Positions 29,049-63,157 of a stretch of DNA of 64,000 nucleotides are shown in pieces (the first letter of the stretch is position 1; every line of letters starts with the position of its first letter). Position numbers and translations under genes: made by a program. The notes beneath the pieces were generated by a model, which was given only the letters and a program-made list of their open reading frames with translations, was not told the origin of the DNA and searched no databases. The stretch comes from an uncultured Alphaproteobacteria bacterium. Its GTDB lineage: Bacteria > Pseudomonadota > Alphaproteobacteria > RF32 > CAG-239. The DNA is taken from the NCBI GenBank assembly GCA_949282205.1, contig CASDOS010000034.1, positions 5,972 through 69,971 on the forward strand, given 5' to 3'.

Positions 29049-29057
29049 TGTCTACTC

Positions 29058-33862: not shown

Positions 33863-33884
33863 TAACCAACAATCAAATAAAAAA

Positions 33885-34500: not shown

Positions 34501-34511
34501 GAGAGAATGAG

Positions 34512-34868: not shown

Positions 34869-34944
34869 AAAAAATAATTACAAATTTAATAATTTTTAAG
34901 ATTTTCGGGCTTAATATGGAATATAGAAAAAGAGGGGTTAAGCC

Positions 34945-35235
34945 ATGAAGGATATAATATTAAAAGCAGTAGCAAATCCGCCCAAATTATTTTGGGGACC
35001 TGTATTGCCGACAGCGTTGAACGCAGGCTTACAAATACCTTTTATGTTTATGGCAATAGGAATGGCGGATGTGAACCCTCTGGTATTTATTATAAGTATT
35101 GTTACAGGGCATTTAATAGTTGTTGCATTAGGAGCCAAAGATCCGCATCTGTCAGGAATGATACAAGCCTTTGGGCAGACTAATATAGTGCCGCAAAATT
35201 TATACAAAGTGAAAGGGCACAAATTTGAACCTTAA
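34945..35235 (+). CDS. virB3: type IV secretion protein VirB3
   Basis: 96 aa with two TM helices and a KDPHLS motif, directly upstream of virB4 and overlapping it. Confidence 0.8.
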   Translation: MKDIILKAVANPPKLFWGPVLPTALNAGLQIPFMFMAIGMADVNPLVFIISIVTGHLIVVALGAKDPHLSGMIQAFGQTNIVPQNLYKVKGHKFEP

Positions 35236-48646: not shown

Positions 48647-49405
48647 ATGGTCAATTTAATAAATCAAAAAATATTGCGTTTAACCGATAAAGCTCGGACG
48701 AAAGACGCGCCAGCTTTTATAACAGAAGATGTCATAGAAGTAAAAAGAGCAAAATTGATTTATTACAAATGGATAAGCAGGCTAATGGCCATATTAGCGA
48801 CAATATCTTTGCTATATGGGGTATGCACGACGCTTTCAATTTTAAAGTTAGCTCCTGAAATCGTAATAGATCCACAGTTATTTGTAGAATTATCAGATTC
48901 TCAATCAATGGTAAAACGCGAAAGAGTCGATCGCTGGATGGAATCTCGAGAAAAGATAATGATTAATTTTATGAAACAATATGTAGAGCTTCGCAACACA
49001 TACATAAAAGATGAAAAAGAAATGAACAATCGCTGGTTATGGGGTGGTTTAGTTTCATATTTATCAACATATCCTGTTTATAAGGAGTTTGAGAAAGTTT
49101 TTCCGAAATTAAAAGAAGAGATGGTAGAGAAAGAAAGTAGCCGCTCGGTAGAAATACTTTCGGTAGAGAGAACCGGAGGGGAGAACAGTAATACATGGAA
49201 GATAGAATTTAAGACATATGATTTTACCTTCAAGCAAAATAGGCTAAGCCGTCGAGCCAGTATTACCCCAACAATAGAAGAAAAATATTGGACAGCGAAC
49301 ATTCGCGGCTATGTAGATCCCAACAGGAGAACGGCATATCGTCGTCTATTAAATCCATTAGGATTTGTAATATACAGTTATTTTCAAAGTGAAATAGAGA
49401 TTTAA
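48647..49405 (+). CDS. virB8: type IV secretion protein VirB8, paralog 1
   Basis: 252 aa with a cytoplasmic N-terminus, a single TM (LMAILATISLLYGVCTTLSIL), then an NTF2-like region beginning NFMKQYVELRNTY. Confidence 0.8.
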   Translation: MVNLINQKILRLTDKARTKDAPAFITEDVIEVKRAKLIYYKWISRLMAILATISLLYGVCTTLSILKLAPEIVIDPQLFVELSDSQSMVKRERVDRWMESREKIMINFMKQYVELRNTYIKDEKEMNNRWLWGGLVSYLSTYPVYKEFEKVFPKLKEEMVEKESSRSVEILSVERTGGENSNTWKIEFKTYDFTFKQNRLSRRASITPTIEEKYWTANIRGYVDPNRRTAYRRLLNPLGFVIYSYFQSEIEI

Positions 49406-49547
49406 AAAAATTTTAAGTATTAAGATGCTACAATTTGCATAAACGATTTAGCCTGTTGATAAGTCGAGGCAATTTATTTTCTCGTTAGACTTTTAAAAAT
49501 AAAAGTTTTAGAAATAAATAAACAGGAAATTATTTAGAGGAGTAATC

Positions 49548-49736
49548 ATGTATAAAGCATTAGTTATAGGTTTTGGCATATTAATATTAGCTGCTTGTAA
49601 TTTAGTGGGAAGTTATTATGAGCCGGAACCCGTAGGTATAGGTAAAGATGTCTACGAATTAAAATTATCACCGTGTGCATGCATAGAAGTTGAATTACCC
49701 AAGACATTACCTGATTGGTTTAAGGCAATGAGTTAA
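49548..49736 (+). CDS. VirB7-like small lipoprotein
   Basis: 62 aa with RBS GAGGAG and lipobox ILAAC. It sits between two virB8 genes, upstream of virB9. Confidence 0.6.
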   Translation: MYKALVIGFGILILAACNLVGSYYEPEPVGIGKDVYELKLSPCACIEVELPKTLPDWFKAMS

Positions 49737-49756
49737 ATAAGTTAGGGTGAGATGCG

Positions 49757-50515
49757 ATGGTTGAGCAGATATCCTCAGAAAACACTAAAAAACTTTTATT
49801 GGAAGGGCAAGGAGCAGAAAAGCCCCATCCCAGGGTAGTACGCCCACAAAAAAGAGGTAATGCGGATATTATAGTAGAAAATGCAACAGAAAAAAGGTAT
49901 TTGTGGACAGCTCGAGCGTTTGCTATAATTTTTGCAGTAAGTTTATGTTGCAATTTAATTTTAACGTATGTGGTAATTGCAATTATGCCATTGTATCGGA
50001 TAGAACCGTATTTATTTAGTTTTGCAGAAAAAAAAGACCAAATATATACAATACATCCTGTGAAAAATATTTATGAGTACAAATATTTAACAGAGATTTT
50101 TGTGCGGGAATATGTATTGTTGCGAAACACATTTGTAAACAATATTGAAGAGATGGAGCAGCGTTGGGGGGCAGGTGGAACGTTACAAGAAATGTCCTCC
50201 CCGGGAGTATATAATCAGTTTCGAGAAAATTTTGCAGATAAAGCAATTGATTTAATAAGAAACCACAATATAACCAGAAACATAAAGATATCCTCAGTAA
50301 CGGAAGTAGGCGGGAAGAATGGAGAGATGTGGTGGCAAGTAGAATTCAGGGTAGAAGATATGATGCCGGAATATGAAACACCACGATTAAGTGTGTGGTT
50401 GGCGTCAATAAAAATACAATATAGAGCCAAAAGGGTAACTTTTGGAGAGAGATTAAAAAATCCTTTAGGGTTTACGGTACTCGATTATAAACAGGTTGAG
50501 CGAAAAACAAATTAA
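49757..50515 (+). CDS. virB8: type IV secretion protein VirB8, paralog 2
   Basis: 252 aa with the same architecture as paralog 1 (TM AFAIIFAVSLCCNLILTYVVIAI; FVREYVLLRNTF). Confidence 0.8.
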   Translation: MVEQISSENTKKLLLEGQGAEKPHPRVVRPQKRGNADIIVENATEKRYLWTARAFAIIFAVSLCCNLILTYVVIAIMPLYRIEPYLFSFAEKKDQIYTIHPVKNIYEYKYLTEIFVREYVLLRNTFVNNIEEMEQRWGAGGTLQEMSSPGVYNQFRENFADKAIDLIRNHNITRNIKISSVTEVGGKNGEMWWQVEFRVEDMMPEYETPRLSVWLASIKIQYRAKRVTFGERLKNPLGFTVLDYKQVERKTN

Positions 50516-50532
50516 ATAGGTGTAGGAATTTG

Positions 50533-52518
50533 ATGATGAAAGTAGCAAAGATTTTATCTATAGTAATAATATCAATAGGAATAATAGTTCCCACCGTATA
50601 CGCGCAGGTAACAAAAGATAATTTGGATCAAAATGCTGACCAGAGCCAAGGGAATTACGCGGCAACCAATTTAAATTATTTAGGCGGAGGCGGATCATTA
50701 GGTATGATGCAGAGTGCATGGAAAGATCCGTTGCAACACATGGGAGAAGGACAAACGCGTCCAGGCTATACAAAGTACTATTGGACACCTGAATTAGTTT
50801 TACCTGTAAGAGTAAGAGAAGGTATGTACACATTAATAAATTTTCCGAATTGGGAAGTTATAGAGAATGTGTATATCGGCGATGGACAATCATTCAATGC
50901 GGAAATACAAGGTCCGTCAAGTTTAATGGTATATCCGGATTCTTCACAATTTGTTGGAGTAGATACCAATATGATTGTTTTTGGTCGGTCTGGGAATAAA
51001 TACGTTTTTTATGTACAAAGTGAAACTGTCAATACCGATAGGATAACCAATGCGATAATAGATATAGAGGTTGTTAAAAGACGTCAAAATGCAACAGGTT
51101 CTGCCGTAATAGGAAGTAACAATGGTGGAGGACATATAAATGCGAACGCGTATGGGCAAAATGGTAGCAGCGCGGATGCAACTTTTACAAGGGATTTGCA
51201 AAAAGAGGACTGGATTGAAAAAATTCCGGTAGATCCAACAAAGTTTCGATTTGATATAGAAGTATATGTTCCTAATCCAGATGATATAGTAATAGCACCG
51301 GAGCGTGTATGGCGCGACAATATTTTCACTTATATAGATTTAGGGGACAAGGCCTTAACAGCAAATCAAAGACCGATAGTAACACTAATTGTAGAGAGGT
51401 CGGAAACCCCGGTAGGTTTTAGAACGGCGGGACCGAATAATCGCCTGATAATAGTGGAAGGTATGGGCGATATGGTTCTTCGCAGTGGTAAGAGAATAGT
51501 CTGCTTAAAATTAAGACGTTCAGATTCGGATGGCTTAGAAAATACAGTTTATGCTAAAACGAATGAATGGGATTTGCAGGCTAAGAATTATCAAAGAGCA
51601 ACAGAAGGAAAAGAAAGTAATACAGAATCATATGAGAATGTATACACAGGTGATGTTCAAAAAGAAAATAATCAAAAGAAATCATTCTTTGGAATCAGCT
51701 CGTTCTTTGGTGGCTCACAAAATACGGATAGTTCAACAACAGATACCAATGGCCTAAGCTACGAAGATATGATAAGCGGTAAAAAGAAAGCGTCCGGTCA
51801 ACAATCCGAGAAAGCCTCAAATGTGGAAAACACAACACCGCAAGATAAGATTAAGCCGCAAACAAATATAGAAAGCAAAACCGAAGAAACAGCTTTGTTA
51901 AATTCAATACCTAAGGCAAAAACATATGTTGCATCTCCAACTCCGCAAGAAAGTGGAATAGAATTAACAGGGCAGTATGATACAAAAGCAGATGGAGCCG
52001 AATTAGTGACGCCACAATATGAGAATAAGGCGGATATATCAGTAAGTTACCAGAAAGATGTTCAGCAAAATACAACAATTCCGGAAAGTGTTAAGCAAAA
52101 TGCTTCAACTCAAGTCGGCGTCTCAAGCAACAATTCAAGTCCTGTCCTGATTACGCCTAAAGATGAAAGTCTAGAAAAACAAAATTCATTAGTTAATGCT
52201 GAAACAGAGGCATTACTCAAAGAGTTTAGAGATGGAAGAGCCTTTTCCAATGCTGATGAGAGCAACATTTCCATAGAATTGGGAACGGATAAAGATGTAA
52301 ACAATTTGGAAAAATTATGGAATGACATATCCAAAAATTACTCAGCGACGTTAGGTAAATATCAGCCATTTTATTCAGTAGACACACCAGCAGACGGACA
52401 GGGAAAAGAAGTGTTTCATCTTCGTGTAGGTCCTGTAAAATCATTAGATGAAGGCGATAATATATGCAGCCAATTAGGTCGTAACGGAATATTTTGCAGT
52501 GTGGTCAGAATACAATGA
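50533..52518 (+). CDS. virB9: VirB9/TrbG-family outer-membrane core protein fused to a C-terminal SPOR domain
   Basis: Signal peptide ...VYAQV. The VirB9-like core runs from about 50700 to 51540 (YTKYYWTPELVLPVRVREGMYTLINFP...MIVFGRSGNKYVFYV...RIVCLKLRR). A ~240-aa Q/S/T/N/E-rich linker follows, and the last ~85 aa are SPOR-like (FHLRVGPVKSLDEGDNICSQLGRNGIFCSVVR). Confidence 0.8.
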   Translation: MMKVAKILSIVIISIGIIVPTVYAQVTKDNLDQNADQSQGNYAATNLNYLGGGGSLGMMQSAWKDPLQHMGEGQTRPGYTKYYWTPELVLPVRVREGMYTLINFPNWEVIENVYIGDGQSFNAEIQGPSSLMVYPDSSQFVGVDTNMIVFGRSGNKYVFYVQSETVNTDRITNAIIDIEVVKRRQNATGSAVIGSNNGGGHINANAYGQNGSSADATFTRDLQKEDWIEKIPVDPTKFRFDIEVYVPNPDDIVIAPERVWRDNIFTYIDLGDKALTANQRPIVTLIVERSETPVGFRTAGPNNRLIIVEGMGDMVLRSGKRIVCLKLRRSDSDGLENTVYAKTNEWDLQAKNYQRATEGKESNTESYENVYTGDVQKENNQKKSFFGISSFFGGSQNTDSSTTDTNGLSYEDMISGKKKASGQQSEKASNVENTTPQDKIKPQTNIESKTEETALLNSIPKAKTYVASPTPQESGIELTGQYDTKADGAELVTPQYENKADISVSYQKDVQQNTTIPESVKQNASTQVGVSSNNSSPVLITPKDESLEKQNSLVNAETEALLKEFRDGRAFSNADESNISIELGTDKDVNNLEKLWNDISKNYSATLGKYQPFYSVDTPADGQGKEVFHLRVGPVKSLDEGDNICSQLGRNGIFCSVVRIQ

Positions 52519-55500
52519 ACGAGAATACGCGATTTGAAGAATATGAAAGAAAGACACGAAAGATAATTTTCACCATAGGAATTATCGCATTCTGTTTTTT
52601 CTTGTTTGGATTATTGATATTATCATCAGATACAGAAGTCTATAATCCGGAAGAAGCAACTCCGGACTTTGTCGAGAACCAAAATATATTGCCAGAAATA
52701 ACAGCGGATACCGGACCGATATTTATTGATACGGAAGCAACAACAGGGGATACAAAAAATAAGCCGATAAAAGTCACGCCAGCACAAATTAACATGAACA
52801 AATTTATTCTAGGAGTTGATGTTCAAAATCAAAGCGTTTTAACAATAGGAACGGATGGCAGTGAGAGCATACATATAGAAAGAGTAGAGTTAGTAGAAGA
52901 AACCGAAGATGGATTTGAATTTAGAGATAAATGCAGAAACCGAGATTTACGAGGAGATGAAACATGCAATATTTTAATAAGTTGGGCACCCCATTTACCG
53001 GGTAATGTTCAAAACAATTTTAAGATAATATGGTATGAAACACGTTTAGATAAATCGAGTGCCAAATCAGAAGAAGTAAGTATTAAGGGCAGTGCGGTGT
53101 ATCCTGAAGATAATCAACAGAATTGTGCTGCGGGAGGAGGGTGCACAATAAGTGAAGATGGAGGCATAGGTGCGCACCGCTTAGCAATAGGTCCAAACGG
53201 GGAGATAATAGGTTATATAGATGAAGCCGGAAATGTCCATGACAAAGATGGTAATATAATCGGTCGTGTAAATGAAGATGGGTTAATAATCGATTCAGAC
53301 GGAAACATAATAGGTGTTGCTCAGAATATGAAATTAGCCTATGACAAAGATGGGAATATTATAGGTTATGTCAAGACAGATGGAACAGTAGTCGATTTAC
53401 AAGGGGAGGTAATAGGGAAAGCTCTTCCGGATGGAACAATAGTCAACAGTAAAGGCGAGATAATAGGGAAAGCGGTTGAAGCAGGTTTTGTATATGATAA
53501 AAACGGAAAAATAATAGGCCGCGTTTTACCAGATGGAACAGTTGTCGATATAAATGATCCCAAAAAGATTATAGGGCGTTTGAATGAAAATGGAGAAGTC
53601 GTTGATGAAAATGGCAATATTATAGGGAAAGTAACATCTGCCGGCAATATTGTTGTAGATGAGAATGGAAATGTTCTAGGCGTTGTAATGCCGGATAACA
53701 GTGTTGTAGACCAAGATGGAAATATTGTAGGTTATGTGGATGAAAATGGCAATGTTTACAAATTAGCAAAAGAAAAGATAGGAACAAATGGAGATAGTAG
53801 AAAAATTGTTTATGATAAGAATGGTAAAGCAATAGGCTACATAGATGAAAATGGCAAAGTAGTTAAGTTTGCACAAGACAAAGATAAACCGGAAATAATA
53901 GGAAAGGTAGGCGTAAGTCGCAGATTAGCATACGATAAAGACGGTAATGTTATCGGTTATGTAGATAAAGATGGAACTGTAAAAGATTTTAAGGGAAATA
54001 TAATCGGGAAGATAGATAAGGACGGTAATATAGTAGATAAGAATGGTAATATTATAGGTAAAGCAGGAGCTTATGCGAAATTAGCGCTAGATAAAGACGG
54101 TAAAGTAATAGGGTATGTGGACGAACAAGGAAGAGTGTTTGACCATAATGGCAAACATATCGGAAATGTAGATAAAAATGGTAATATCATCGGAATAAAA
54201 AAAGCCGAAACCAATGGAGATAAAAAAAGAATAGCTTTAGGTTTGGATGGTAAGCCGATAGGGTATATTGACGATGATGGTAATGTAATAGACTTTGAGG
54301 GTAATATTATCGGCAAGGTAAATGAAAAAGGAGAAATAATCGGCAAGAATGGGAAAAAAATTGGTACTGCCGGCGGATATGGTACGGTAGCCTATGATAA
54401 GAATGGAAAGATTATAGGTTTTGTGGACGATAAAGGGCGAGTAATCGGGAAGGATGGAAAACTCCTGGGATATGTAGATGAAAAAGGACAAATTATAGGT
54501 ACGACGGGAAAAATAATAGGGCGAGCCGGAACAACAAGAGAAGTAGCCTATGATAAAAATGGGAAATTCATAGGTTACGTCGACACGGATGGAACCGTAA
54601 AAGGATGCGGCGGAGTAGTTATCGGTAAGAAAGACGCCTCAGGAAATGTAATTGATAAAGAAGGAAAAGTGATAGGAAAGGTTAAAGGTGTAAAAGAGTT
54701 AGCCTTTAATTCACAAGGAGTATTTATCGGATATATTGATGAAAAAAAGCGGGTAATAGACTGCGATGGAAAGATAATAGGTGTTGTTGATAAAAAAGGA
54801 AACATCATCGCATCAAGTGGAGAAAAACTGGGAACAGCCGGTAATTATAAAAGATTAGCATATGACAAAAACGGGAAAGTAATCGGATATGTAACACCCG
54901 ATGGGACGGTAAAAGATTTCAAAGGTAACTTAATAGGTCGAATGACTGAAGACGGAACAATTCTTGATAAAAAAGGAAGAGTTATCGGAAAAGCCGGAGA
55001 ATATAGGCAAGTGGCCACAGACAAAGACGGCAATATAATAGGCTATGTAGATGAAAATGGCCGCGTGGTAGATGAAAACGGAAAACTAATAGGTTTCATA
55101 GATAAAGACGGTAATGTGATTAAAGCCGGTACAACCGTAATCGGTAAAACATGTATTAGAAAAAAGGTTGTAAAAAACAAGACCGGAAACATCATCGGTT
55201 ATTTAGATAAAAACAATATTGTAAAAAATTTCAGTAATAAGGTTATTGGGACGAATAAAAATGGAGATATCGTTGATAACAAAGAATTATTGATAGGAAC
55301 GGTCGGGGAAATAATGAATATAGCACAAAAAGGCAATGGTGAAATTGTTGGCTATTTAGATGCTAGAAACTACGTTCGAGGAGATGAAAATAAAGTTATA
55401 GGTATTGTTGATATAAAGGGAAATGTCCTTGGAGCAAAAGAAAATATAGTAGGGATCCTTGATGCAGATAAAAAAACGGTTAAGGATAAAGGGAATAATG

Positions 55501-58500
55501 AAATAGGCTATGTGAAAGAGAATAACTTTGTGTTCGATAAAGGGAATAAATTAATAGGTTATGTAACAGAAGACAAAGAGGTAAAAGCCGTTGGAGAGGT
55601 AATATGTACAGCATGTAAGAGTGTAAAGTTGGCATATGACAAGGAAGGTAATATTATTGGTTATGTTGACGAGAATGGCAACGTGATAGATGAAAACGGC
55701 AACATTATTGGTAGAGTAGATGAACAAGGTAATGTTATAGATAAAGATGGTAAAATAATAGGGAAAGTTGGCGAAGCCAGAAACTTAGCCTATGACAAAG
55801 ATGGAAAAGTCATTGGCTATGTAGACAAAGATGGATCAGTCAAAGATTTTAAAGGCAATGTAATCGGATATGTTGATGAAAATGGTAACATTCTGAAAAA
55901 CACCAATGAAATCATCGGTAGTGTTGGAAAAAAAGGTAAATTAGCGTATGATAAGAACGGTAAAGTTATCGGTTATGTTGACAAAGATGGTAATGTCTAT
56001 GACTTCAAAGGAAATTTGATAGGTAAAGCAACAAAAGATGGCAAAATAATAGATCAATACGGACGAGAGATAGGAAGAGTCGGCGAAATAAAAAATCTCG
56101 CTGTGGATAAAGATGGTAAAGTTATCGGATATGTTGGCGAAGATGGAAAAGTCTACGGAGAAAATGGAGAACTCATAGGGTTTATGGATGAAGACGGCAA
56201 CATCATAGGCGTAACAGGCGAAGTTATCGGAAAAGCAGATACAAATCGTCGACTAGCGTATGACAATGACGGCAATGTAATAGGCTACATAGACGAAGAT
56301 GGTACGGTACGAGATTTCAATGGCAATTTGATAGGCTATTTAGGAGAAGATGGAAGCATTAATGACATAAACGGGAATATTATAGGTAAAGCCGGTGATT
56401 ATGCGAAAGTCGTACTAGATAAAGATGGCAATGTAATAGGTTATGTAGATGAAAAAGGCAGAGTAATAGGAAACGATGGGAAAGTCATAGGATTCGTTGC
56501 AGAAGATGGGACTGTTTATGAAAGTAGCGGAGAAGTTATAGGTAGATTAGCGGAAAAGGGCGAAGGTAATTTAAAAGTGATATCCCGAAAAGCCGTATTA
56601 GATAAAGATGGAAATATAATCGGATACATTGACGAAAACGGGATTGCAAGAGATTTAGATGGGAATATATTGGGAACCGTACAAGAAGACGGAAGTATAA
56701 AAGACAGCAAAGGAAACATTATCGGTCATGTAGGCGGAAATGTAGAATTTACGGTGGATGAAAGTGGGAAGATAATAGGTCAAGTAGGAGATTACTCAAA
56801 TCTAGCAATAGATGAAAATGGTAATGTAATAGGATATATAGGGAGTGATGGAAAAGTATACAATGCCAACGGTATAGTCATCGGATATATTGATGAAAAT
56901 GGCAATGTTATAAGCACCCATGGCGTAAGAATAGGAACAGTTATAAAAAAAGACATGGTAGCCATTTCCCCGGCAGGATATAGCTTAGGTATAATTAACA
57001 ACAAGGGAGAGGTAATCAATAACAAAGCCGAAGTTATAGGGAAAGTATTGCCTAATTCGCTGATAAAATCCACAGAAGGAGATAAGATAATAGGAAAAAC
57101 AGTCATGGGAGGCATGGCCATAGGCTGGGGGTGTCAACATCTGGGGATGGTAGAGAAAGATGCAAAAGTAAGAAAAGATGGAAAAGAAACCGATTATCGA
57201 ATGCTTTTTGACAGAAGTATTGTAGATAAAGACGGGCAATATGCCGGCGACATAGCCAAAACAGGAACAGTTAGAGATGAGAAATGCAATGTTATAGGTA
57301 AAGCTGGATACGATGGATTTGTGCGTAATGAAGAAGGCGGATACGTTGGTTGTGTAAATCCGGACGGAGGTGTTTTGAATCAAGACGGACAATTGATAGG
57401 AAAAGTTTTTGAACCCGGATATGCATTATATTACAGCGGAGAGATGATGGGAAGCATGAATCAAGACGGAAAGATTATGGTAGGTTCACAAGCAATTGGG
57501 TGCACAAACTTTGATGGCGAAGTATTAAATAAAGATGGTTTTATCATCGGTCAAATTATGGATAAAACACAAGCATTCGGAGTAGAAGGAGATTTCATAA
57601 ATAATCTATCTGTCTTTAAGTATGATAATACGCAAGTAATACCAAACACAAAAATATTATTTAATAAATATCTGGTAAATCCGAAATTAGAAATAAAAGG
57701 TGTTTTGCTACCTGAGAAGAATATTGTAGTGGATTCAAATGGAGAAATGATAGGACACCTATTTGCAGATGGATATGTGTATAATCAAAAAGGAATAGCA
57801 ATAGATAAAATTGCGTATGAAGGAAATTCTTTTTACTCCAATAAACCTGGGAAAATAATGCAAAAAGGAAACGTGGTTGATTTTAATGGCAACTACATAG
57901 GATTTGTGAATGATTCCGGAAAAGTAATAGATGCACTGGGAACAGAATTAGGGTACATAGATGGAAAAGGACGAATGTTTGATAAGCAAGGAGAATATAA
58001 AGGAGGAATAGTCAAGACCGGTGTAGGAATAGGATATGATGGTTCGTACTTAGGCTATGTAAGTAAGAGTGGGAAAGTAATAGATATAGATGGCAATATA
58101 AGCGGAAACGTTGGTTCTGAAGGTCACATATTAGATAAAAATAAACAAATAATAGGGGAAGTTATTCAAGAGGATTTTATAATTGATATACAGGGAAAAG
58201 TCAGAGGATATTTGAATGCCTTGGGTGATATTATAGATAATGAGGATAACATAGTGACAACCATACTACCCGGAGGAACATCAAATAAAAATTATAACGT
58301 ATTAAAAAGAGGCGTAATACTAAATTATTCAGGAAGAGTAATAGGTCAAGTTGTAGCGGATGGAAGTGTAATATCCAACGATAATGTAAAAATTGGTCAT
58401 ATATTAAATTCTGGTCAAGCCGTTAATGACAAAGGAATACTAATAGGAGAAGTTGTCGAAGATGACATAGTGATTAATGAAAATGACCAAGTTGTAGGTT

Positions 58501-58796
58501 TTATAAATGCGGAAGGCAAGGTATTAGATAAGGAGAAATCCACAATAGGAAAAATCATATCATCAAATTTAGTTGTAGATAACAATGGAAAAATATTGGG
58601 ACATAGTTATAAAATAGGTGCTAATATACTAGGCAATGACGGAAAATTTTTGGGCAGATTATCACCAAACGGAACGATATATAGTCTGACAAATGGAAAA
58701 ATCGGATATTTAAAGAGTAATGGATCATATGTAAATATTCGAAACAAGGTTTCCGGATATGTATTAGATGAAGTGGCGCAAAACCGGAGGAACTAA
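52515..58796 (+). CDS. giant membrane-anchored repeat protein (about 2090 aa) of unknown function within the T4SS operon
   Basis: ATG 52515 overlaps the virB9 stop (ATGA). It has a short basic N-terminus, one TM (IIFTIGIIAFCFFLFGLLILS) and a ~150-aa beta-rich domain with two Cys residues. From about 53180 onward it is an uninterrupted run of DxDGxxIG-type repeats to the C-terminus. Confidence 0.85.
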   Translation: MNENTRFEEYERKTRKIIFTIGIIAFCFFLFGLLILSSDTEVYNPEEATPDFVENQNILPEITADTGPIFIDTEATTGDTKNKPIKVTPAQINMNKFILGVDVQNQSVLTIGTDGSESIHIERVELVEETEDGFEFRDKCRNRDLRGDETCNILISWAPHLPGNVQNNFKIIWYETRLDKSSAKSEEVSIKGSAVYPEDNQQNCAAGGGCTISEDGGIGAHRLAIGPNGEIIGYIDEAGNVHDKDGNIIGRVNEDGLIIDSDGNIIGVAQNMKLAYDKDGNIIGYVKTDGTVVDLQGEVIGKALPDGTIVNSKGEIIGKAVEAGFVYDKNGKIIGRVLPDGTVVDINDPKKIIGRLNENGEVVDENGNIIGKVTSAGNIVVDENGNVLGVVMPDNSVVDQDGNIVGYVDENGNVYKLAKEKIGTNGDSRKIVYDKNGKAIGYIDENGKVVKFAQDKDKPEIIGKVGVSRRLAYDKDGNVIGYVDKDGTVKDFKGNIIGKIDKDGNIVDKNGNIIGKAGAYAKLALDKDGKVIGYVDEQGRVFDHNGKHIGNVDKNGNIIGIKKAETNGDKKRIALGLDGKPIGYIDDDGNVIDFEGNIIGKVNEKGEIIGKNGKKIGTAGGYGTVAYDKNGKIIGFVDDKGRVIGKDGKLLGYVDEKGQIIGTTGKIIGRAGTTREVAYDKNGKFIGYVDTDGTVKGCGGVVIGKKDASGNVIDKEGKVIGKVKGVKELAFNSQGVFIGYIDEKKRVIDCDGKIIGVVDKKGNIIASSGEKLGTAGNYKRLAYDKNGKVIGYVTPDGTVKDFKGNLIGRMTEDGTILDKKGRVIGKAGEYRQVATDKDGNIIGYVDENGRVVDENGKLIGFIDKDGNVIKAGTTVIGKTCIRKKVVKNKTGNIIGYLDKNNIVKNFSNKVIGTNKNGDIVDNKELLIGTVGEIMNIAQKGNGEIVGYLDARNYVRGDENKVIGIVDIKGNVLGAKENIVGILDADKKTVKDKGNNEIGYVKENNFVFDKGNKLIGYVTEDKEVKAVGEVICTACKSVKLAYDKEGNIIGYVDENGNVIDENGNIIGRVDEQGNVIDKDGKIIGKVGEARNLAYDKDGKVIGYVDKDGSVKDFKGNVIGYVDENGNILKNTNEIIGSVGKKGKLAYDKNGKVIGYVDKDGNVYDFKGNLIGKATKDGKIIDQYGREIGRVGEIKNLAVDKDGKVIGYVGEDGKVYGENGELIGFMDEDGNIIGVTGEVIGKADTNRRLAYDNDGNVIGYIDEDGTVRDFNGNLIGYLGEDGSINDINGNIIGKAGDYAKVVLDKDGNVIGYVDEKGRVIGNDGKVIGFVAEDGTVYESSGEVIGRLAEKGEGNLKVISRKAVLDKDGNIIGYIDENGIARDLDGNILGTVQEDGSIKDSKGNIIGHVGGNVEFTVDESGKIIGQVGDYSNLAIDENGNVIGYIGSDGKVYNANGIVIGYIDENGNVISTHGVRIGTVIKKDMVAISPAGYSLGIINNKGEVINNKAEVIGKVLPNSLIKSTEGDKIIGKTVMGGMAIGWGCQHLGMVEKDAKVRKDGKETDYRMLFDRSIVDKDGQYAGDIAKTGTVRDEKCNVIGKAGYDGFVRNEEGGYVGCVNPDGGVLNQDGQLIGKVFEPGYALYYSGEMMGSMNQDGKIMVGSQAIGCTNFDGEVLNKDGFIIGQIMDKTQAFGVEGDFINNLSVFKYDNTQVIPNTKILFNKYLVNPKLEIKGVLLPEKNIVVDSNGEMIGHLFADGYVYNQKGIAIDKIAYEGNSFYSNKPGKIMQKGNVVDFNGNYIGFVNDSGKVIDALGTELGYIDGKGRMFDKQGEYKGGIVKTGVGIGYDGSYLGYVSKSGKVIDIDGNISGNVGSEGHILDKNKQIIGEVIQEDFIIDIQGKVRGYLNALGDIIDNEDNIVTTILPGGTSNKNYNVLKRGVILNYSGRVIGQVVADGSVISNDNVKIGHILNSGQAVNDKGILIGEVVEDDIVINENDQVVGFINAEGKVLDKEKSTIGKIISSNLVVDNNGKILGHSYKIGANILGNDGKFLGRLSPNGTIYSLTNGKIGYLKSNGSYVNIRNKVSGYVLDEVAQNRRN
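53180..58790 (+). repeat. in-frame coding tandem repeat array (unit about 10-17 aa, super-repeat about 50 aa)
   Basis: The block LAYDKDGNVIGYVDKDGTVKDFKGNIIGKIDKDGNIVDKNGNIIGKAG recurs. More than a dozen anchors of the form [LV][AV][YLVT]D[KNE][DN]G[NK][VI]IGY[VI][DG] are visible by eye, and the repeats become more degenerate after about 57000. Confidence 0.9.
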
Positions 58797-61700
58797 GTTG
58801 CATAGAAACATAATAAGATTAAGCAAAATATTAAAGCTGACGTTTTTATGTGTAGTTATTGGCTTGAAAGCAATGGCAGCAGATATCAGTGCGCTTAATT
58901 TTAATGGCGACTTGATTGGAAAAGTAATTCCCGACGGAGCGATAATAAACAGCAATAATGAAGTAGTAGGATATATAACGGCAGATGGCTTTGCATATGA
59001 CAATGAGAATAATTTAATAGGAGGAGTTGTACCGCAAGGAATAGCCATATCATATAATAACAGCATATTAGGAAAAATTAATAATGATGGTTCGGTAACA
59101 TCTATAAATGATAATTTAATCGGTAAAGTACTCCCCAATGGGTTAGTTGTAAATGACAATTACGATATTTTAGGAGCCTCAATATCACCGAATTTAGTAT
59201 ATAATGATTTAGGGGAAGTAGTAGGAAGAGTATCCGGAGATGGTAAATTTTACAATTTGTCAGGAGAAAATACTGGGTTTGTTACGGCAAGTGGATATGT
59301 TTATTCAAATTCAGGAAATGAGAATAAAATCAATTTAATAGGCAAATTAATCACATCAAAAATAGTAATATCCACAACGGGAAAATATCTTGGAAGTATT
59401 GCGCCCGACGGAAAGGTTATGGATTTAAAAAAGAATATTATAGGAAATATTCATGCCAATGGTTTCGTTTATAATAAGGAAGGACAAGCGATTGGTCATG
59501 TAGTTGATAATGGGTATGCCTTTAATAATAACGGTCAATATATAGGAGTAGTCAGCTATAATGGGGAGGTTGTAAACAAAGGTACGGTAGTAGCACATTC
59601 GGTTAATGGAAATAGAGTAATAAATAAAGAAGGGAAGACAATAGGTTTTACCGTAAGTATGTTAGCAACAGCTAATACGTTAGAAGGCGAATATCTGGGG
59701 CGGATTACAGCAGAAGGGAAGATATTAAATAAAAGAAACATAGTAGGAACAATAGGCGCATCAGGAAAAGTCATAGATGAAAAAGGTGAAGTCATTGGAA
59801 TTATAAATTCAGAAGGTCCTATTTTTGATTATTTAGGAAATTTGCGCGCCAATGCATCCATAGGTGGAAAAGTAGTATCATTAGAAGGGGTGGATTTAGG
59901 GAAGATTTTTCAAGGAGAAGCGATTGACAATAATGGTAAAGTAATAGGTCGGACGCTAGAAAATAACTTATGTTTTAACAACAATAACGAATTTTTAGGA
60001 ATAAGCGGAATAAATACGACATTAAGAGCAAACGGTCAAACGTATAAAATTTCACCATACGGCTATATTTTTGACGAGAATGGAGAAATAAACGGTATAA
60101 ATATTAAGCAAGGCGGCATATATACAGAAGACGGAACAACATTATCTTTTACATCAAATGATGGCAAAACAGAAAATGTATCATTAAACGAGATAGCAAA
60201 ATTTACAGGGAATGGAATTTTTCTGGATAAAAATAATAAACTACTGGGAAAAATGATAGCAAGCAAGTTTATTACGAATTTTGCGGGAGAAATGGAAGGA
60301 GTAGTGAACTCAGGAAATTTGGTTGTAAATTCCCAAAATAAAATATTTGCAAAGATTTTGCCTGATGACAATGTTGTAGGTATATCGGAGCGTTTTTCAC
60401 AAAATCACGGAAGATCCAATAATGCCCCCATAAGCATAAGTATAAATGGTGATTACTTGGGTTCCAATAGTTTAACAGGGCAAGTAATAAACGGATCAGA
60501 GATAATAGGCAAGGTAAGCTCCAGTGGGTATGTAATAGACAATATGGGAGCATTATATGGAAAATCAATAAAAATGGGCACCATTATCACGCCAGAGTGT
60601 AAAGCAGTAGGTGTTGTATCAAGTAATGGCGAAGCGAGAACCTCAAAAGATGCATATTTAGGTATGATATTGGCAAATAAACAAGTATTGAATGAAACAG
60701 AGGAAGTTATAGGATATATTACTGAGCCACAAGCAATAAACGGAAAAGGCGGAGAAATAATAGGTGTAAGCAATACAACCGGAAGTGTATTAAACTACAA
60801 CAACCAGAATTTAGGATGCGTTGATAAAAACGGAAAAGTTAGGAACTCTCAACAAGAAATAATCGGCCAGATAATTCCATATATGTCAATAATGGGATTT
60901 GATAATAAGATTATAGGTTATACAAATTTTCACGGAAGTGTAATAGATAATTCCGGAATACAAATTGCAACAATAGAACTGGATGGAAGCATTTTATCCA
61001 AAGAAGGAAAAAACATAGGAGTACCGTTTCAATATACGGTAGCATTTGATGCCAATAATATATACTTAGGTCGAGTAAATCCTGATGGAAATGTTGTATC
61101 AGACACAGGAGAGAATCTAGGTACGGTACTACATACCGGAGAAGTAAAGACCAAAAACGGAGATGATGGGTACGCATTATATGATTTGTACATATATGAT
61201 AATGAAGGTCAAACGATTGGATATATTGCTAAAAATGGTCGTATATACAGTATAATGGGAGAATTAAAAGGCTCCATATATCATGGATTTGTCCTTGATA
61301 AAAAACAGAATTTAATAGGTCGAGGTCTAAGAGATTACGAAATAAGGGATAAGAACAATCAAATACTTGGACATTTAAATTTAGATGGTAGTGTTGTAAA
61401 TATTAAAAATATAGAAATCGGCAAGATAGATAGAGAAGGAAAAGTAATTTCTCCATCAGGAGAAATAATCGGTCAGGCCGGAAAACTACAATATTATCAT
61501 CGTCCATCAGAACCCCAAGATGAAGAAATAAATGAAGAAACAACAAATAGTGCATCGGCAGTAGAAGACACTGAAAGCCAAGAAAAAGAAGAAAGTCAAG
61601 AAAATAAACCATTAGAAGATTCGGATGAAAATAGTCCGATTAAACCTGAGGAAAATATTGAAGAAACTTTAACACCAGAAGAACAGGCAGCTCAAGAAAC

Positions 61701-63138
61701 AAAAGAGAATTATCAAGTTATAGGCATAGCTGTAACCCCAGGAGGGCGTTACATAGGGGACGTATATAGCAATAATAAAGTAATTGATGAATCAGGCATG
61801 GAAGTTGGAAGCACCAATGAAAATGGTGATATATTTGACAATGAAGGAAATAAGGTCGGAAACTTCGAAAAGCGGAGAGGAAATAATGAAAGACATGGAA
61901 ATACAAATTGGTATGAACAGATAGCTAAAGGAGCAACAATAAATCCATACAGTAGCGGCAATGAAATAACAAATGTAGGACCTGGTGGTGGCATTGGACC
62001 TGGAGGTCGATATAATCCAAGAAGAGCAGCTATATTATCACAGCTACAAGACGAGAGGCGGAGAACGTTAGTTGCAGCTAAAATAGAGCCAGGATATGAT
62101 GCGGCATCATATACGGGGTGGCAAGACGATTGGGGATTAAAAAGGTCAATATCAACATTAAGAGTCAATATGGATAATATGATAACCGGAGATAAACCAA
62201 TACCGGCCGTATTAGCTCGTTCATTAATATCATTGGGTTCCGCACCTGTAACGGCGATTGTTGAAAGAAATATATATGGCGATACAGGTCGTAATGTAAT
62301 AATTCCTGCAGGAAGTCGTATAATAGGAGGATTACAAACAACAGAAACAGAAGCGAGATTTGATAATACAAGTGGAGGTGTGAAATTAGAAATATCGTGG
62401 GAGAGAATTATACGTCCGGATGGAATAGCCTTTTTATTATCACCAGGAAAGACACAAACGGGGGACGCACAAGGTCGGGGCGGTGGCGCACTAGGATATG
62501 TTGATGAACAACTGGTTAAAAAATATACATTACCGATTGTAGGAACGATGGTCACATCAGCAATAACATATATGATGGCAGCGGACGAAGATAGTACGGG
62601 TGAAGTAGAAAACTCGAAACAGCAAGCTGCATCAGATGCAAGACAAGAGTTTATGGATAAGATGGATCAAATTCTACAAGAAATCATCGACAGTAAATCA
62701 CAAATTGAACCAGTGACATATGTACCGGCCGGAACGAGAGTAATCATTTATCCGATGCAAGATTTATGGTTAAGAAGCACAAAAGATATACAAAGAGGAA
62801 TGACAACAGCAATACCGGGAGGCGGTGAAGGCGGGCTGGTTAATGATACATTCTATGATGGGCAAGGCGGTGGAACATATACATCGACAGTCGAAGGGAA
62901 TAATTCCAAAGGCAGTCAAAAGGTTATTTTGGGAAATCAAGCACAAACAAGTAATTCAAATAACACAAGTAATAACGGAGGAACGCCATTACTTGACGGA
63001 GGAGCAAACAATCAGCAACAGCCACAACAACGAAAAGATGTAGGCGCAATACCACCACCTGCAGCAGATGGCTCAGTAGTAGATGTTCCTGAAAGCGATG
63101 AAGATGAGGATTTTGACAATATGGATTTGTCATTTTAG
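58768..63138 (+). CDS. virB10: VirB10/TrbI-family protein with a ~1000-aa N-terminal repeat extension
   Basis: Basic N-terminus plus TM (LKLTFLCVVIGLKAMA), with a possible alternative TTG start at 58798. Degenerate Gx[VI]xxxxGxx[IL]G repeats run from about 58900 to 61480, followed by an acidic P/E-rich linker (61500-61710). The TrbI/VirB10 core is at about 62130-62800 (IPAVLARSLIS...IPAGSRIIGG...ISWERIIRPDG...GALGYVDEQL). The tail is N/Q/G-rich and acidic. Confidence 0.88.
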   Translation: MKWRKTGGTKLHRNIIRLSKILKLTFLCVVIGLKAMAADISALNFNGDLIGKVIPDGAIINSNNEVVGYITADGFAYDNENNLIGGVVPQGIAISYNNSILGKINNDGSVTSINDNLIGKVLPNGLVVNDNYDILGASISPNLVYNDLGEVVGRVSGDGKFYNLSGENTGFVTASGYVYSNSGNENKINLIGKLITSKIVISTTGKYLGSIAPDGKVMDLKKNIIGNIHANGFVYNKEGQAIGHVVDNGYAFNNNGQYIGVVSYNGEVVNKGTVVAHSVNGNRVINKEGKTIGFTVSMLATANTLEGEYLGRITAEGKILNKRNIVGTIGASGKVIDEKGEVIGIINSEGPIFDYLGNLRANASIGGKVVSLEGVDLGKIFQGEAIDNNGKVIGRTLENNLCFNNNNEFLGISGINTTLRANGQTYKISPYGYIFDENGEINGINIKQGGIYTEDGTTLSFTSNDGKTENVSLNEIAKFTGNGIFLDKNNKLLGKMIASKFITNFAGEMEGVVNSGNLVVNSQNKIFAKILPDDNVVGISERFSQNHGRSNNAPISISINGDYLGSNSLTGQVINGSEIIGKVSSSGYVIDNMGALYGKSIKMGTIITPECKAVGVVSSNGEARTSKDAYLGMILANKQVLNETEEVIGYITEPQAINGKGGEIIGVSNTTGSVLNYNNQNLGCVDKNGKVRNSQQEIIGQIIPYMSIMGFDNKIIGYTNFHGSVIDNSGIQIATIELDGSILSKEGKNIGVPFQYTVAFDANNIYLGRVNPDGNVVSDTGENLGTVLHTGEVKTKNGDDGYALYDLYIYDNEGQTIGYIAKNGRIYSIMGELKGSIYHGFVLDKKQNLIGRGLRDYEIRDKNNQILGHLNLDGSVVNIKNIEIGKIDREGKVISPSGEIIGQAGKLQYYHRPSEPQDEEINEETTNSASAVEDTESQEKEESQENKPLEDSDENSPIKPEENIEETLTPEEQAAQETKENYQVIGIAVTPGGRYIGDVYSNNKVIDESGMEVGSTNENGDIFDNEGNKVGNFEKRRGNNERHGNTNWYEQIAKGATINPYSSGNEITNVGPGGGIGPGGRYNPRRAAILSQLQDERRRTLVAAKIEPGYDAASYTGWQDDWGLKRSISTLRVNMDNMITGDKPIPAVLARSLISLGSAPVTAIVERNIYGDTGRNVIIPAGSRIIGGLQTTETEARFDNTSGGVKLEISWERIIRPDGIAFLLSPGKTQTGDAQGRGGGALGYVDEQLVKKYTLPIVGTMVTSAITYMMAADEDSTGEVENSKQQAASDARQEFMDKMDQILQEIIDSKSQIEPVTYVPAGTRVIIYPMQDLWLRSTKDIQRGMTTAIPGGGEGGLVNDTFYDGQGGGTYTSTVEGNNSKGSQKVILGNQAQTSNSNNTSNNGGTPLLDGGANNQQQPQQRKDVGAIPPPAADGSVVDVPESDEDEDFDNMDLSF
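58900..61480 (+). repeat. in-frame degenerate repeat array inside virB10, same family as 53180-58790
   Basis: Examples are GDLIGKVIPDGAIINSNNEVVGYITADGFAYDNENNLIGGVVPQG and GKVIDEKGEVIGIINSEG. Additional copies lie at about 61720-61860. Confidence 0.8.
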
Positions 63139-63157
63139 GGCAAATACAGATATAGTA

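What the first reader, a model, noticed from the sequence alone, without database searches (positions are those of the whole stretch)
58768..63138. VirB10 with ~1000-aa N-terminal extension of the same repeat family (DotG/IcmE-like layout in a VirB-type system)
Seen in sequence: a TrbI/VirB10 barrel domain is clear at about 62130-62800. It is preceded by a TM anchor, about 860 aa of degenerate Gx[VI]xxxxGxx[IL]G repeats, and an acidic P/E-rich linker. This is where ordinary VirB10 has only a short Pro-rich region. Established knowledge: canonical VirB10 is about 380-480 aa. Legionella DotG/IcmE is a VirB10 homolog with a long repeat-containing N-terminal region, but of a different repeat type. 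Inference: the upstream 2100-aa gene looks like a paralog of the VirB10 N-terminal module without the barrel, so the two may co-assemble. The C-terminal N/Q-rich, strongly acidic tail (DVPESDEDEDFDNMDLSF) is also atypical.
Basis: partly seen in the sequence, partly recalled or inferred. Interest (0 to 1): 0.8.

Follow-up and report, generated by a model that had tools for sequence, protein, structure and literature searches.

The report
Giant VirB10 split into two genes
In this uncultured gut alphaproteobacterium, the type IV secretion protein that normally links the inner and outer membranes as one chain (VirB10) carries a huge array of 17-residue beta-hairpin repeats and is encoded as two adjacent genes, one with the inner-membrane anchor and one Sec-exported with the outer-membrane barrel, so it offers a natural test of whether that link must be a single chain.

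Summary
ORF 58768-63138 encodes a 1456-aa protein with a TrbI/VirB10 barrel (aa 1126-1340). Ahead of the barrel lie about 51 degenerate 17-aa beta-hairpin repeats (Pfam beta-flower families) and an acidic disordered linker. One detail is wrong. The N-terminus is a cleavable-type Sec signal peptide (AxA site in 119/119 homologues), not a membrane anchor.

The upstream 2093-aa gene (X) is more than a repeat paralogue. It carries the true VirB10 N-terminus: a cytoplasmic motif, a 21-aa TM helix and a PapD-like domain, followed by about 110 hairpins. X is collinear with the N-terminal part of single-gene giant VirB10s (1500-2600 aa) in related uncultured Alphaproteobacteria, and those operons have no X.

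The window therefore holds a split giant VirB10. All 22 split-type loci with upstream sequence have X, and 3 of 3 unsplit loci lack it. The split forms one clade on a barrel tree (197/200 bootstraps).

The operon is chromosomal and follows the order of the Rickettsia rvh islet C. I infer that the two halves re-associate in the periplasm as rigid hairpin rods, forming a collar or strut like the one proposed for DotG and CagY. I found no publication on this. It is a new variant of a known kind.

The parts
52515..58796 (+). Gene X, the N-terminal half of the split VirB10 (2093 aa from ATG 52515; the ORF lister's TTG 52494 is probably too early). Layout: cytoplasmic motif aa 1-16, TM helix about aa 17-38, disordered aa 46-81, PapD/ASH-like beta-sandwich aa 85-195, about 110 beta-hairpins from aa 222 to the end.
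   Evidence: The ATG overlaps the virB9 stop as ATGA. Hydropathy reaches KD19 2.9. AF2 gives helix 6-37 and a sandwich at 85-195. Foldseek matches ASH/PapD/MSP domains with TMt 0.6-0.73. Pfam Bflower_2 scores E 1e-143. The N-terminus is collinear with unsplit giant VirB10s. It is conserved at 63-96% identity across 17 species-level loci.
58786..58800 (+). Junction between the two genes. A GGAGG Shine-Dalgarno sequence lies inside the last codons of X (..N R R N *). The X stop is at 58794-58796 and the likely VirB10' start is TTG 58798.
   Evidence: Sequence. The same AAC-CGG-AGG-AA / stop / start layout occurs in the distant split loci L024-L028.
58768..58878 (+). Signal peptide of VirB10' (aa 1-37 from ATG 58768, or 27 aa from TTG 58798). 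The predicted cleavage site is AMA|ADIS.
   Evidence: AxA statistics and the break in conservation at the cleavage site. Maximum KD19 is 1.9, against 2.5-3.5 in true TM-type relatives.
58879..61482 (+). Beta-hairpin array of VirB10' (aa 38-905, about 51 units of 17 aa).
   Evidence: Pfam Bflower_2, Bflower and DUF3659. Period 17 aa. AF2 of aa 38-480 gives pLDDT 93, pTM 0.91 and 50 short strands. No global structural match in the PDB or BFVD, TM <= 0.13.
61483..61722 (+). Acidic, fast-evolving linker (aa 906-985).
   Evidence: E 26%, net charge -19. Only 14-78% identity among orthologues, the least conserved segment.
61723..62142 (+). Three further hairpins (aa 986-1045), then a conserved Gly/Arg-rich pre-barrel segment (aa 1046-1125, NVGPGGGIGPGGRYNP...YTGWQDDW).
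   Evidence: Units listed. Near-invariant columns in alignment A1.
62143..62787 (+). TrbI/VirB10 beta-barrel (aa 1126-1340), including the stretch that aligns to the helix-rich segment of ComB10.
   Evidence: Pfam PF03743 E 3.8e-28. NCBIfam ComB10 and VirB10 domain models match, but below their equivalog cut-offs. PDB 2bhv E 4e-17, also 7o3j and 6gyb. 69-99% identity among orthologues.
62788..63138 (+). Low-complexity C-terminal tail (aa 1341-1456) ending in ...DNMDLSF, plus the stop codon.
   Evidence: The last residue is F in 236 and Y in 16 of 265 giant VirB10s, and the median tail length is 119 aa. Poorly conserved otherwise.
50530..52518 (+). VirB9/CagX homologue with a long low-complexity extension and a C-terminal SPOR domain.
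   Evidence: Pfam CagX E 2e-14 and SPOR E 5e-4.
48647..50515 (+). VirB8 (48647-49405), a VirB7-like lipoprotein ORF (49548-49736, lipobox LILAAC) and a second VirB8 (49757-50515).
   Evidence: Pfam VirB8 E 5e-12 and 1e-17. ORF translation. The same order is seen in L022-L027 and in Rickettsia islet C (PMC2653234).
63217..64000 (+). VirB11 ATPase, N-terminal part (the gene runs off the window).
   Evidence: Sequence. The full orthologue in L001 matches TIGR02788 VirB11 at E 5e-47.
33485..37678 (+). Start of the same operon: two VirB2/TrbC pilin genes (33485-33862 and 34383-34868), a VirB3-like ORF with two TM segments (34945-35235) and VirB4 (35225-37678).
   Evidence: Pfam and NCBIfam. Hydropathy.

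Best explanation
The window encodes a giant VirB10 of a chromosomal VirB-type secretion system, laid out like the Rickettsia rvh system and divided between two translationally coupled genes.

Gene X supplies what a normal VirB10 has at its N-terminus: a short conserved cytoplasmic motif, one inner-membrane helix and a PapD-like domain. About 110 beta-hairpins follow these.

The downstream gene (VirB10') is exported by Sec and loses its signal peptide. It supplies about 51 hairpins, a disordered acidic linker, three more hairpins, the outer-membrane TrbI barrel, and a disordered tail ending in Phe.

Shown:
- The domain content of both proteins.
- The homology of each half to the matching part of single-gene giant VirB10s.
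- The strict co-occurrence of signal-peptide-type VirB10 with gene X.
- A single origin of the split.
- Strong purifying selection on both hairpin arrays.

Inferred:
- The two halves bind each other in the periplasm through their rigid hairpin rods. This restores the inner-to-outer-membrane connection that canonical VirB10 makes as one chain.
- Multiplied by the ring symmetry of the core complex, the rods would build a large periplasmic collar or strut, comparable to the collar proposed for the repeat regions of DotG and CagY.
- Cytoplasmic ATPase signals would then reach the outer-membrane gate through a non-covalent joint.
For: Identity of the downstream half:
- TrbI barrel.
- Signal peptide: -3 is A/V/T/S in 117/119, -1 is A/S in 119/119, and the hydrophobic run has a median of 13 aa.

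Identity of X:
- TM helix with KD19 2.9.
- AF2 helix 6-37 plus a beta-sandwich, which Foldseek matches to PapD/ASH/MSP domains.
- X aa 1-235 aligns to aa 1-228 of unsplit giants at E 3e-17.
- X 1-1679 aligns to P0151 1-1760 (E 3e-146), and VirB10' 50-1431 aligns to P0151 787-2155 (E 4e-108).

Co-occurrence:
- X lies between virB9 and virB10 in all 22 split-type loci with upstream sequence.
- X is absent in 3 of 3 TM-type loci.

Evolutionary series:
- Relatives of 500-630 aa have the same cytoplasmic motif, TM helix, PapD-like domain, Pro-rich region and barrel, but no hairpins.
- On an NJ tree of the barrel, the split type forms a clade in 197/200 bootstraps, and giants separate from canonical-size proteins in 200/200.

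Coupling between the genes:
- A conserved Shine-Dalgarno sequence sits in the last codons of X, and the start codon follows 2-8 nt after it.

Conserved junction ends:
- The last 40 or so residues of X are nearly invariant.
- 7 of the 54 invariant columns of aa 38-480 of VirB10' fall in the first 20 mature residues.
- The end of X is basic (net +4) and the start of VirB10' is acidic.

Rigid fold:
- AF2 gives pLDDT 93 and pTM 0.91 over 443 aa, all short hairpins.
- The arrays are conserved position by position, at 50-92% identity for VirB10' and 63-96% for X.

Collar analogy:
- 10.1101/2023.03.22.533729.
Against: - No direct evidence that X and VirB10' bind each other. No multimer prediction could be run.
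- The 3D shape of the hairpin array could not be inspected, so its length and whether it fits the periplasm are unknown.
- The total array length varies widely between lineages (X plus VirB10' is 2570-3990 aa). It is not a fixed ruler.
- Part of the conservation at the C-terminus of X (NRRN) is explained by the embedded ribosome-binding site rather than by a protein contact.
- Signal-peptide cleavage is predicted, not measured.
- No VirD4, no polytopic VirB6 and no substrate were found in the window, so what the machine secretes is unknown.
Confidence: 0.62

Rival explanations
1. The N-terminal hydrophobic segment of VirB10' is an uncleaved signal anchor. VirB10' would then be a complete, inner-membrane-anchored VirB10 on its own, and X would be an accessory paralogue sitting beside it.
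For: The presequence has a positively charged n-region and a hydrophobic core. In a few homologues the uncharged run reaches 22 residues. Cleavage was not measured.
Against: The AxA motif is essentially universal, with -1 Ala/Ser in 119/119. The hydrophobic run has a median of only 13 aa, and the presequence is not conserved while the residue after the site starts a strongly conserved block. Hydropathy is 1.5-2.2, against 2.5-3.5 for the TM helices of the unsplit relatives. The conserved cytoplasmic motif of the family is found on X, not on VirB10'.
Confidence: 0.12
2. The hairpin arrays are surface-exposed or host-contact modules, used as an adhesin or as a variable antigen in the way proposed for the CagY repeat region, rather than periplasmic scaffolding.
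For: CagY, another giant VirB10, has been reported to be surface-exposed, with repeats that recombine to tune function (PMC2194252 and PMC5954226). X varies in length between species (1990-2516 aa). The hairpins resemble Rhs/YD and teneurin repeats locally.
Against: DNA repeats are only 60-76% identical, with no long identical copies to drive recombination. The arrays are conserved position by position, and X is more conserved than most of VirB10', which does not fit diversifying selection. Both arrays lie N-terminal to the barrel or attached to an inner-membrane anchor, which places them in the periplasm unless they are exported by an unknown route.
Confidence: 0.1
3. X has taken on a new function and no longer works with VirB10'. 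For example, it could be an inner-membrane-anchored envelope or peptidoglycan-associated fibre, with VirB10' acting without any inner-membrane connection.
For: [quoted passage not shown] The neighbouring VirB9 carries a SPOR peptidoglycan-binding domain. Junction motifs of the split clade are absent from unsplit proteins, which shows that the ends evolved after the split.
Against: Synteny and translational coupling between virB9 and virB10' are strict in every split-type locus examined. X keeps the family's cytoplasmic motif. X is never found in the operons of unsplit relatives.
Confidence: 0.12

Closest known systems
Canonical VirB10/TrbI (A. tumefaciens VirB10, pKM101 TraF, R388 TrwE, Xanthomonas VirB10, H. 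pylori ComB10)
   Same: C-terminal TrbI barrel. Position between virB9 and virB11. Across X and VirB10' together the order is the same: cytoplasmic tail, one TM helix, periplasmic spacer, barrel.
   Different: Canonical proteins are about 380-480 aa in one chain with a Pro-rich spacer. PDB chains are 395-406 aa and R. typhi VirB10 is 481 aa (PMC2653234). Here the spacer is about 160 beta-hairpins plus a PapD-like domain, about 3550 aa in total. The protein is in two chains, the barrel half has a signal peptide, and there is a tail of about 115 aa ending in Phe.
Single-gene giant VirB10 of uncultured Alphaproteobacteria
   Same: Same cytoplasmic motif, TM helix, PapD-like domain, hairpin family, barrel and aromatic-ended tail. 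Same virB8-small ORF-virB8-virB9-virB10-virB11 order, although P0190's 11-kb contig shows one virB8 and ends within virB10.
   Different: One polypeptide of 1500-2600 aa, with no X gene and no signal peptide. Sister clade on the barrel tree.
H. pylori CagY
   Same: VirB10 homologue enlarged several-fold by repeat regions ahead of the barrel (PMC5954226). Its repeat region is proposed to form a periplasmic collar (10.1101/2023.03.22.533729).
   Different: No sequence match to any CagY chain in the PDB search. CagY repeats are near-identical at the DNA level and recombine, whereas these are 60-76% identical. CagY is a single gene.
Legionella/Coxiella DotG (IcmE)
   Same: TrbI-type C-terminus with a long repeat-containing middle region (1000 to more than 1500 aa; PMC6761968). 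Proposed to build the collar.
   Different: DotG repeats have a 10-aa motif ([KR]xAG[FY]...). The DotG middle region is highly variable between Legionella species. DotG belongs to a type IVB system and is a single gene. Here the unit is a 17-aa hairpin, the arrays are conserved, and the context is VirB-type.
Rickettsiales vir homologue (rvh) system
   Same: Islet C order virB8a-virB7-virB8b-virB9b-virB10-virB11 (PMC2653234) matches 48647-64000. VirB8 is duplicated, the system is chromosomal, and the barrel is closest to ComB10.
   Different: RvhB10 is of normal size. virD4 does not follow virB11 here; in L001 engB, yidC and rnpA follow it. No polytopic VirB6 paralogues follow virB4. Gene X is inserted.
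Beta-flower fold families PF21784/PF21785 (Durairaj et al. 2023, PMC10584680)
   Same: Scores far above the gathering cut-off. Hairpin-tip [DNEQ]xxG motif.
   Different: The described beta-flowers are small closed barrels of 8-12 strands (about 96 aa). Here 50-110 hairpins run without breaks and are predicted as one rigid body. No link to secretion systems was reported.

Membership tests
VirB10/TrbI (PF03743) | C-terminal TrbI beta-barrel domain | tested here: met
   Pfam 99.1 bits against a cut-off of 35, aa 1139-1335. PDB ComB10 2bhv E 4e-17, also TrwE and Xanthomonas VirB10. The NCBIfam ComB10 and VirB10 models match, but below their equivalog cut-offs (113.9 against 300; 85.8 against 220).
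VirB10/TrbI (PF03743) | Helix-loop-helix antenna inserted in the barrel | tested here: inconclusive
   The alignment to ComB10 runs through aa 1246-1300 (hydrophobic stretch YTLPIVGTMVTSAITYMMA, acidic loop, amphipathic stretch). No structure of this part was predicted.
VirB10/TrbI (PF03743) | N-terminal cytoplasmic tail and a single inner-membrane helix on the same polypeptide as the barrel | tested here: not met
   VirB10' has a signal peptide with an AxA site. The tail and the TM helix are on X.
VirB10/TrbI (PF03743) | Pro-rich periplasmic spacer | tested here: not met
   The spacer is a hairpin array plus an acidic linker with 8% Pro. Canonical-size relatives such as P0185 do have Pro-rich spacers.
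VirB10/TrbI (PF03743) | Encoded between virB9 and virB11 in a VirB-type operon | tested here: met
Beta-flower (PF21784/PF21785, clan CL0395) | Sequence match above the gathering score, with the hairpin-tip [DNEQ]xxG motif | tested here: met
   Bflower_2 scores 176 bits for VirB10' and 470 bits for X, against a cut-off of 38. 17-mer consensus G-x-[VAI]-[IVL]-[DN]-x-[ND]-G-x-[IV]-[IL]-G. Motif as defined in PMC10584680.
Beta-flower (PF21784/PF21785, clan CL0395) | Closed shallow barrel of 8, 10 or 12 strands with 4-, 5- or 6-fold symmetry | not testable with these tools
   AF2 gives 50 consecutive short strands with pTM 0.91, but coordinates could not be inspected. Foldseek found no global match.
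CagY-type VirB10 | Near-identical direct DNA repeats that allow in-frame recombination | tested here: not met
   TRF finds one trivial array. Direct-repeat families are 60-76% identical, with periods of 51 and 156 nt.
CagY-type VirB10 | Sequence similarity to CagY repeat regions | tested here: not met
   phmmer against all PDB chains returns only ComB10, TrwE and Xanthomonas VirB10, all through the barrel. X has no PDB hit.
DotG/IcmE | 10-aa / pentapeptide-like repeats and a type IVB (Dot/Icm) gene context | tested here: not met
   The repeat period is 17 aa. The neighbours are VirB2, B3-like, B4, B7-like, B8, B9 and B11. DotG motif.
rvh-type T4SS (Rickettsiales) | virB8-virB7-virB8-virB9-virB10-virB11 order with duplicated VirB8 | tested here: met
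   Islet C as given in PMC2653234. X is an insertion in that order.
rvh-type T4SS (Rickettsiales) | virD4 after virB11, and several large polytopic VirB6 paralogues after virB4 | tested here: not met
   In L001, engB, yidC and rnpA follow virB11. The five ORFs after virB4 each have only an N-terminal hydrophobic segment. The rest of the genome was not available.

The most novel reading that the evidence does not exclude
This would be the first natural type IV secretion system in which the envelope-spanning, energy-sensing VirB10 is split into an inner-membrane half and a Sec-exported outer-membrane half. The halves would be held together only by non-covalent contacts between two very long rigid beta-hairpin rods. 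These rods would form a new kind of periplasmic collar, and the joint could act as a connection that assembles or releases on demand.
Probability: 0.4. Interest if true: 0.8.

Novelty: new variant of a known kind. Interest (0 to 1): 0.72.

Why it matters
- VirB10 is the only core T4SS subunit thought to reach from the inner to the outer membrane. It is thought to pass ATP-dependent conformational signals to the outer-membrane gate (established knowledge, from work on A. tumefaciens VirB10). A lineage in which the chain is naturally cut, with each half conserved and co-inherited, allows a direct test of whether covalent continuity is needed.
- It also gives a third, independent case, after CagY and DotG, of a VirB10 expanded by repeats. 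Unlike those two, the repeats here are predicted with high confidence, which could help explain what periplasmic collars are for.
- It ties the recently named beta-flower repeat family, which has no known function, to a defined molecular machine.
- The carriers are common but uncultured Alphaproteobacteria of human and ruminant guts. Their conserved chromosomal T4SS probably matters for how they live.

Tried and rejected
- Fusion or frameshift artefact: rejected. 22 independent assemblies keep the stop codon, ribosome-binding site, start codon and signal peptide.
- Programmed frameshift joining X to VirB10': considered, because VirB10' is in the +1 frame across a 29-nt overlap if ATG 58768 is the start. 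It is unlikely. A GGAGG lies 7 nt before TTG 58798, distant relatives have no overlap, and the presequence looks like a normal signal peptide.
- CagY-like recombination: rejected.
- Plasmid or conjugative origin: no support. The flanks are housekeeping genes, and plasmid records match only the barrel.
- Fixed combined length of X plus VirB10' (a molecular ruler): not supported. Sums range from 2570 to 3990 aa.
- An internal site in unsplit proteins matching the junction motifs: none found. Fission cannot therefore be told apart from tandem duplication with reciprocal loss.
- My first label of the 1811-aa ORF (43193-48628) as VirB6-like was wrong. It has no polytopic membrane region.
- The homologue search with X aa 1-235 returned only short fragments. 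Cluster look-up gave no names. Foldseek against the viral library was uninformative.
- Literature searches found nothing on this architecture: beta-flower, DUF3659, RF32 with T4SS, VirB10 with gene fission, and gut MAG T4SS.
- The first attempt at a tree timed out.

Full report
**What is there.** ORF 58768-63138 (+) encodes 1456 aa.
- Pfam places a TrbI/VirB10 domain at aa 1139-1335 (E 3.8e-28, 99 bits against a cut-off of 35).
- It assigns the N-terminal 900 residues to the beta-flower repeat families: Bflower_2 E 2e-52, plus Bflower and DUF3659.
- The barrel also matches solved structures: ComB10 (2bhv, E 4e-17), R388 TrwE and Xanthomonas VirB10.
- The repeats have a period of 17 aa, with autocorrelation 0.17 against a mean of 0.079. 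The consensus is G-x-[VAI]-[IVL]-[DN]-x-[ND]-G-x-[IV]-[IL]-G-x-[VI]-x-x-[DN].
- After about 51 units comes an acidic linker (aa 906-985, E 26%, net charge -19).
- Three more hairpins and a conserved Gly/Arg-rich segment follow, then the barrel and a 116-aa low-complexity tail.

**The N-terminus is a signal peptide, not an anchor.**
- In 119 homologues the presequence varies in length (7-48 aa, median 27) and in sequence.
- Its longest uncharged run has a median of 13 residues.
- Position -3 is A/V/T/S in 117 of 119, and -1 is Ala in 116 and Ser in 3.
- The residue after the site begins a strongly conserved block, [AQ][DE]I[ST]A[IL][DN]FNGDL.GKVIPDG.
- Hydropathy is 1.5-2.2 in this type, against 2.5-3.5 for real TM helices in relatives.
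- The likely start codon is TTG 58798. It lies 7 nt after a GGAGG that sits inside the last codons of the upstream gene, and 1 nt after that gene's stop. Distant relatives share this layout with ATG, TTG or GTG starts.

**The upstream gene is the missing N-terminal half.** Gene X probably starts at ATG 52515, which overlaps the virB9 stop as ATGA, and encodes 2093 aa.
- It begins with a short conserved cytoplasmic motif (ENTRFEEYE[RK]KTR) and a 21-residue TM helix with KD19 2.9.
- AF2 predicts a helix at aa 6-37, a disordered stretch and a beta-sandwich at aa 85-195, with hairpins from aa 222.
- Foldseek matches the sandwich to ASH/PapD/MSP domains with TMt up to 0.73.
- The remainder is about 110 hairpins of the same family, with a 52-aa super-period (Bflower_2 E 1e-143; period).
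- The repeat regions of the two proteins align at E 1e-68 over about 1000 aa.

**Comparison with single-gene relatives.**
- An exhaustive search with the barrel found 73 cluster representatives at E < 1e-30. Nearly all full-length ones are 1400-2400 aa, and proteins of 400-630 aa appear only further down the ranking.
- The long relatives fall into two types. One has a signal peptide like the window protein. The other has a real TM helix near residue 20 and is 1500-2600 aa long.
- X aa 1-235 aligns collinearly with aa 1-228 of the TM type (E 3e-17).
- Against the unsplit P0151 (2201 aa), X 1-1679 aligns to 1-1760 (E 3e-146), and VirB10' 50-1431 aligns to 787-2155 (E 4e-108).
- In the loci of three TM-type proteins, virB9 is followed directly by virB10, with no X.
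- In every signal-peptide-type locus with upstream sequence, an X gene lies between virB9 and virB10. This covers 17 species-level gut genomes and 5 more distant contigs. X always has the same N-terminal motif and ends in ...SGY[AV]L.EVA.NRRN.
- Relatives of 500-630 aa (e.g. P0185) have the same cytoplasmic motif, TM helix and PapD-like domain. A Pro-rich spacer and the barrel follow, with no hairpins.
- An NJ tree of the barrel (70 sequences, 244 columns) separates giants from canonical-size proteins in 200/200 bootstraps. It recovers the signal-peptide type as one clade in 197/200.

The most economical history is this. A VirB10 with a PapD-like domain gained a hairpin array once. In one descendant lineage the gene was then divided, either by fission or by tandem duplication with reciprocal loss. 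These two routes could not be told apart.

**Context.**
- The window is chromosomal. It contains uvrC, addAB, RNase PH and an ATP synthase gene.
- The operon runs as follows: two VirB2 genes, a VirB3-like ORF, VirB4, five large ORFs without family matches, VirB8, a VirB7-like lipoprotein, VirB8, VirB9 with a SPOR domain, X, VirB10' and VirB11.
- In the closest relative (L001), engB, yidC, rnpA, gpsA, recF and dnaN follow VirB11. The locus is therefore close to the usual origin-region genes, and no virD4 is adjacent.
- The B8-B7-B8-B9-B10-B11 order equals Rickettsia rvh islet C (PMC2653234).
- The carriers are uncultured Alphaproteobacteria from human and ruminant guts, with GC of 31-44% across the 21 genome-collection loci L001-L021.
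- Databases call the proteins only 'TrbI/VirB10 family', 'DUF3659 domain-containing' or hypothetical.
- Sequenced plasmids match the barrel only.

**Properties of the arrays.**
- AF2 on aa 38-480 with 68 sequences gives pLDDT 93 and pTM 0.91, with 50 short strands and no linkers. This points to one rigid body rather than loosely linked domains.
- Foldseek finds only local likeness to Rhs/YD and teneurin hairpins, with TM <= 0.13, and nothing useful among viral models.
- Among orthologues the arrays are conserved position by position: X 63-96% and the VirB10' array 50-92%. The barrel is 69-99%, the linker 14-78% and the tail 27-89%.
- At the DNA level the repeats are 60-76% identical, with periods of 51 and 156 nt. 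CagY-style recombination is therefore not expected.

**How it probably works.**
- Shown: the two genes together contain every part of a VirB10, they are co-inherited, and they are translationally coupled.
- Inferred: after export the two halves bind through their hairpin rods.
- Support for binding comes from the near-invariant end of X and the conserved start of mature VirB10', and from a weak charge complementarity. The last five residues of X are also constrained by the ribosome-binding site they encode.
- The assembled rods, multiplied by the ring symmetry, would form a large periplasmic structure. The nearest published idea is the collar attributed to the repeat regions of DotG and CagY. 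That preprint notes that conjugative VirB10s lack such a region (10.1101/2023.03.22.533729).
- Still unknown: whether the joint passes on ATPase-driven signals, what the tail ending in Phe or Tyr (252/265) binds, and what the system secretes.

**Novelty.** Full-text searches found no description of a beta-flower-containing or split VirB10. It is a new variant of a known kind of protein. The split, the signal peptide and the size of the arrays are features a T4SS specialist would not expect.

Noticed in passing
window 62788-63138, and homologues: Giant VirB10s of both the split and unsplit types carry a disordered tail after the barrel (median 119 aa). The sequence of the tail is not conserved, but its last residue is Phe in 236 and Tyr in 16 of 265 proteins, usually as LF, MF or DF. 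Its function is unknown. It could be a docking peptide for another subunit.
   Followed up: partly
window 50530-52518: VirB9 is 662 aa, more than twice the size of R. typhi VirB9a (247 aa). It has a long S/T/N/Q/E-rich low-complexity region and a C-terminal SPOR (peptidoglycan-binding) domain. A SPOR hit, marked faint, also appears on the VirB9 of one unsplit relative (L023).
   Followed up: partly
window 37746-48628: Five consecutive ORFs (383, 727, 232, 454 and 1811 aa) lie between virB4 and virB8 and have no family match. Each has at most an N-terminal hydrophobic segment, and the 232-aa ORF has none, so no polytopic VirB6 is present in the operon. The 727-aa ORF gives weak coiled-coil-type hits (SMC and others). 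In the distant locus L024 a TrbL/VirB6-like gene lies on the opposite strand downstream.
   Followed up: partly
window 21780-33281: A type IVb pilus-like cluster lies directly upstream of the T4SS operon, on the opposite strand. It includes a secretin (29058-30686), a TcpQ-like protein (30652-31740), a PilO-like protein (27771-29048), a T2SSE ATPase (24558-26222) and T2SSF (23421-24554). A further T2SSE-family ATPase is on the + strand (21780-22727).
   Followed up: no
window 49548-49736: An unannotated 62-aa ORF with a lipobox (LILAAC) lies between the two virB8 genes. It is a likely VirB7, and ORFs of similar size sit at the same place in the other loci with called genes (L022-L027).
   Followed up: partly
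window 58786-58796; L024-L028 junctions: The last codons of X (AAC CGG AGG AAC TAA, giving N R R N stop) contain the GGAGG ribosome-binding site for the next gene. The invariant NRRN C-terminus is therefore constrained at both the protein and the RNA level.
   Followed up: yes
window 33485-33862 and 34383-34868: There are two diverged VirB2/TrbC pilin paralogues (125 and 161 aa) at the head of the operon, followed by a 96-aa VirB3-like ORF with two TM segments and no family hit.
   Followed up: no
L022 (contig of the unsplit relative P0151): The unsplit giant VirB10 locus has 53% GC and is flanked by flagellar genes (FlaF, FliJ, FlgH, a T3SS-type ATPase). The architecture is therefore not limited to low-GC gut lineages.
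   Followed up: no
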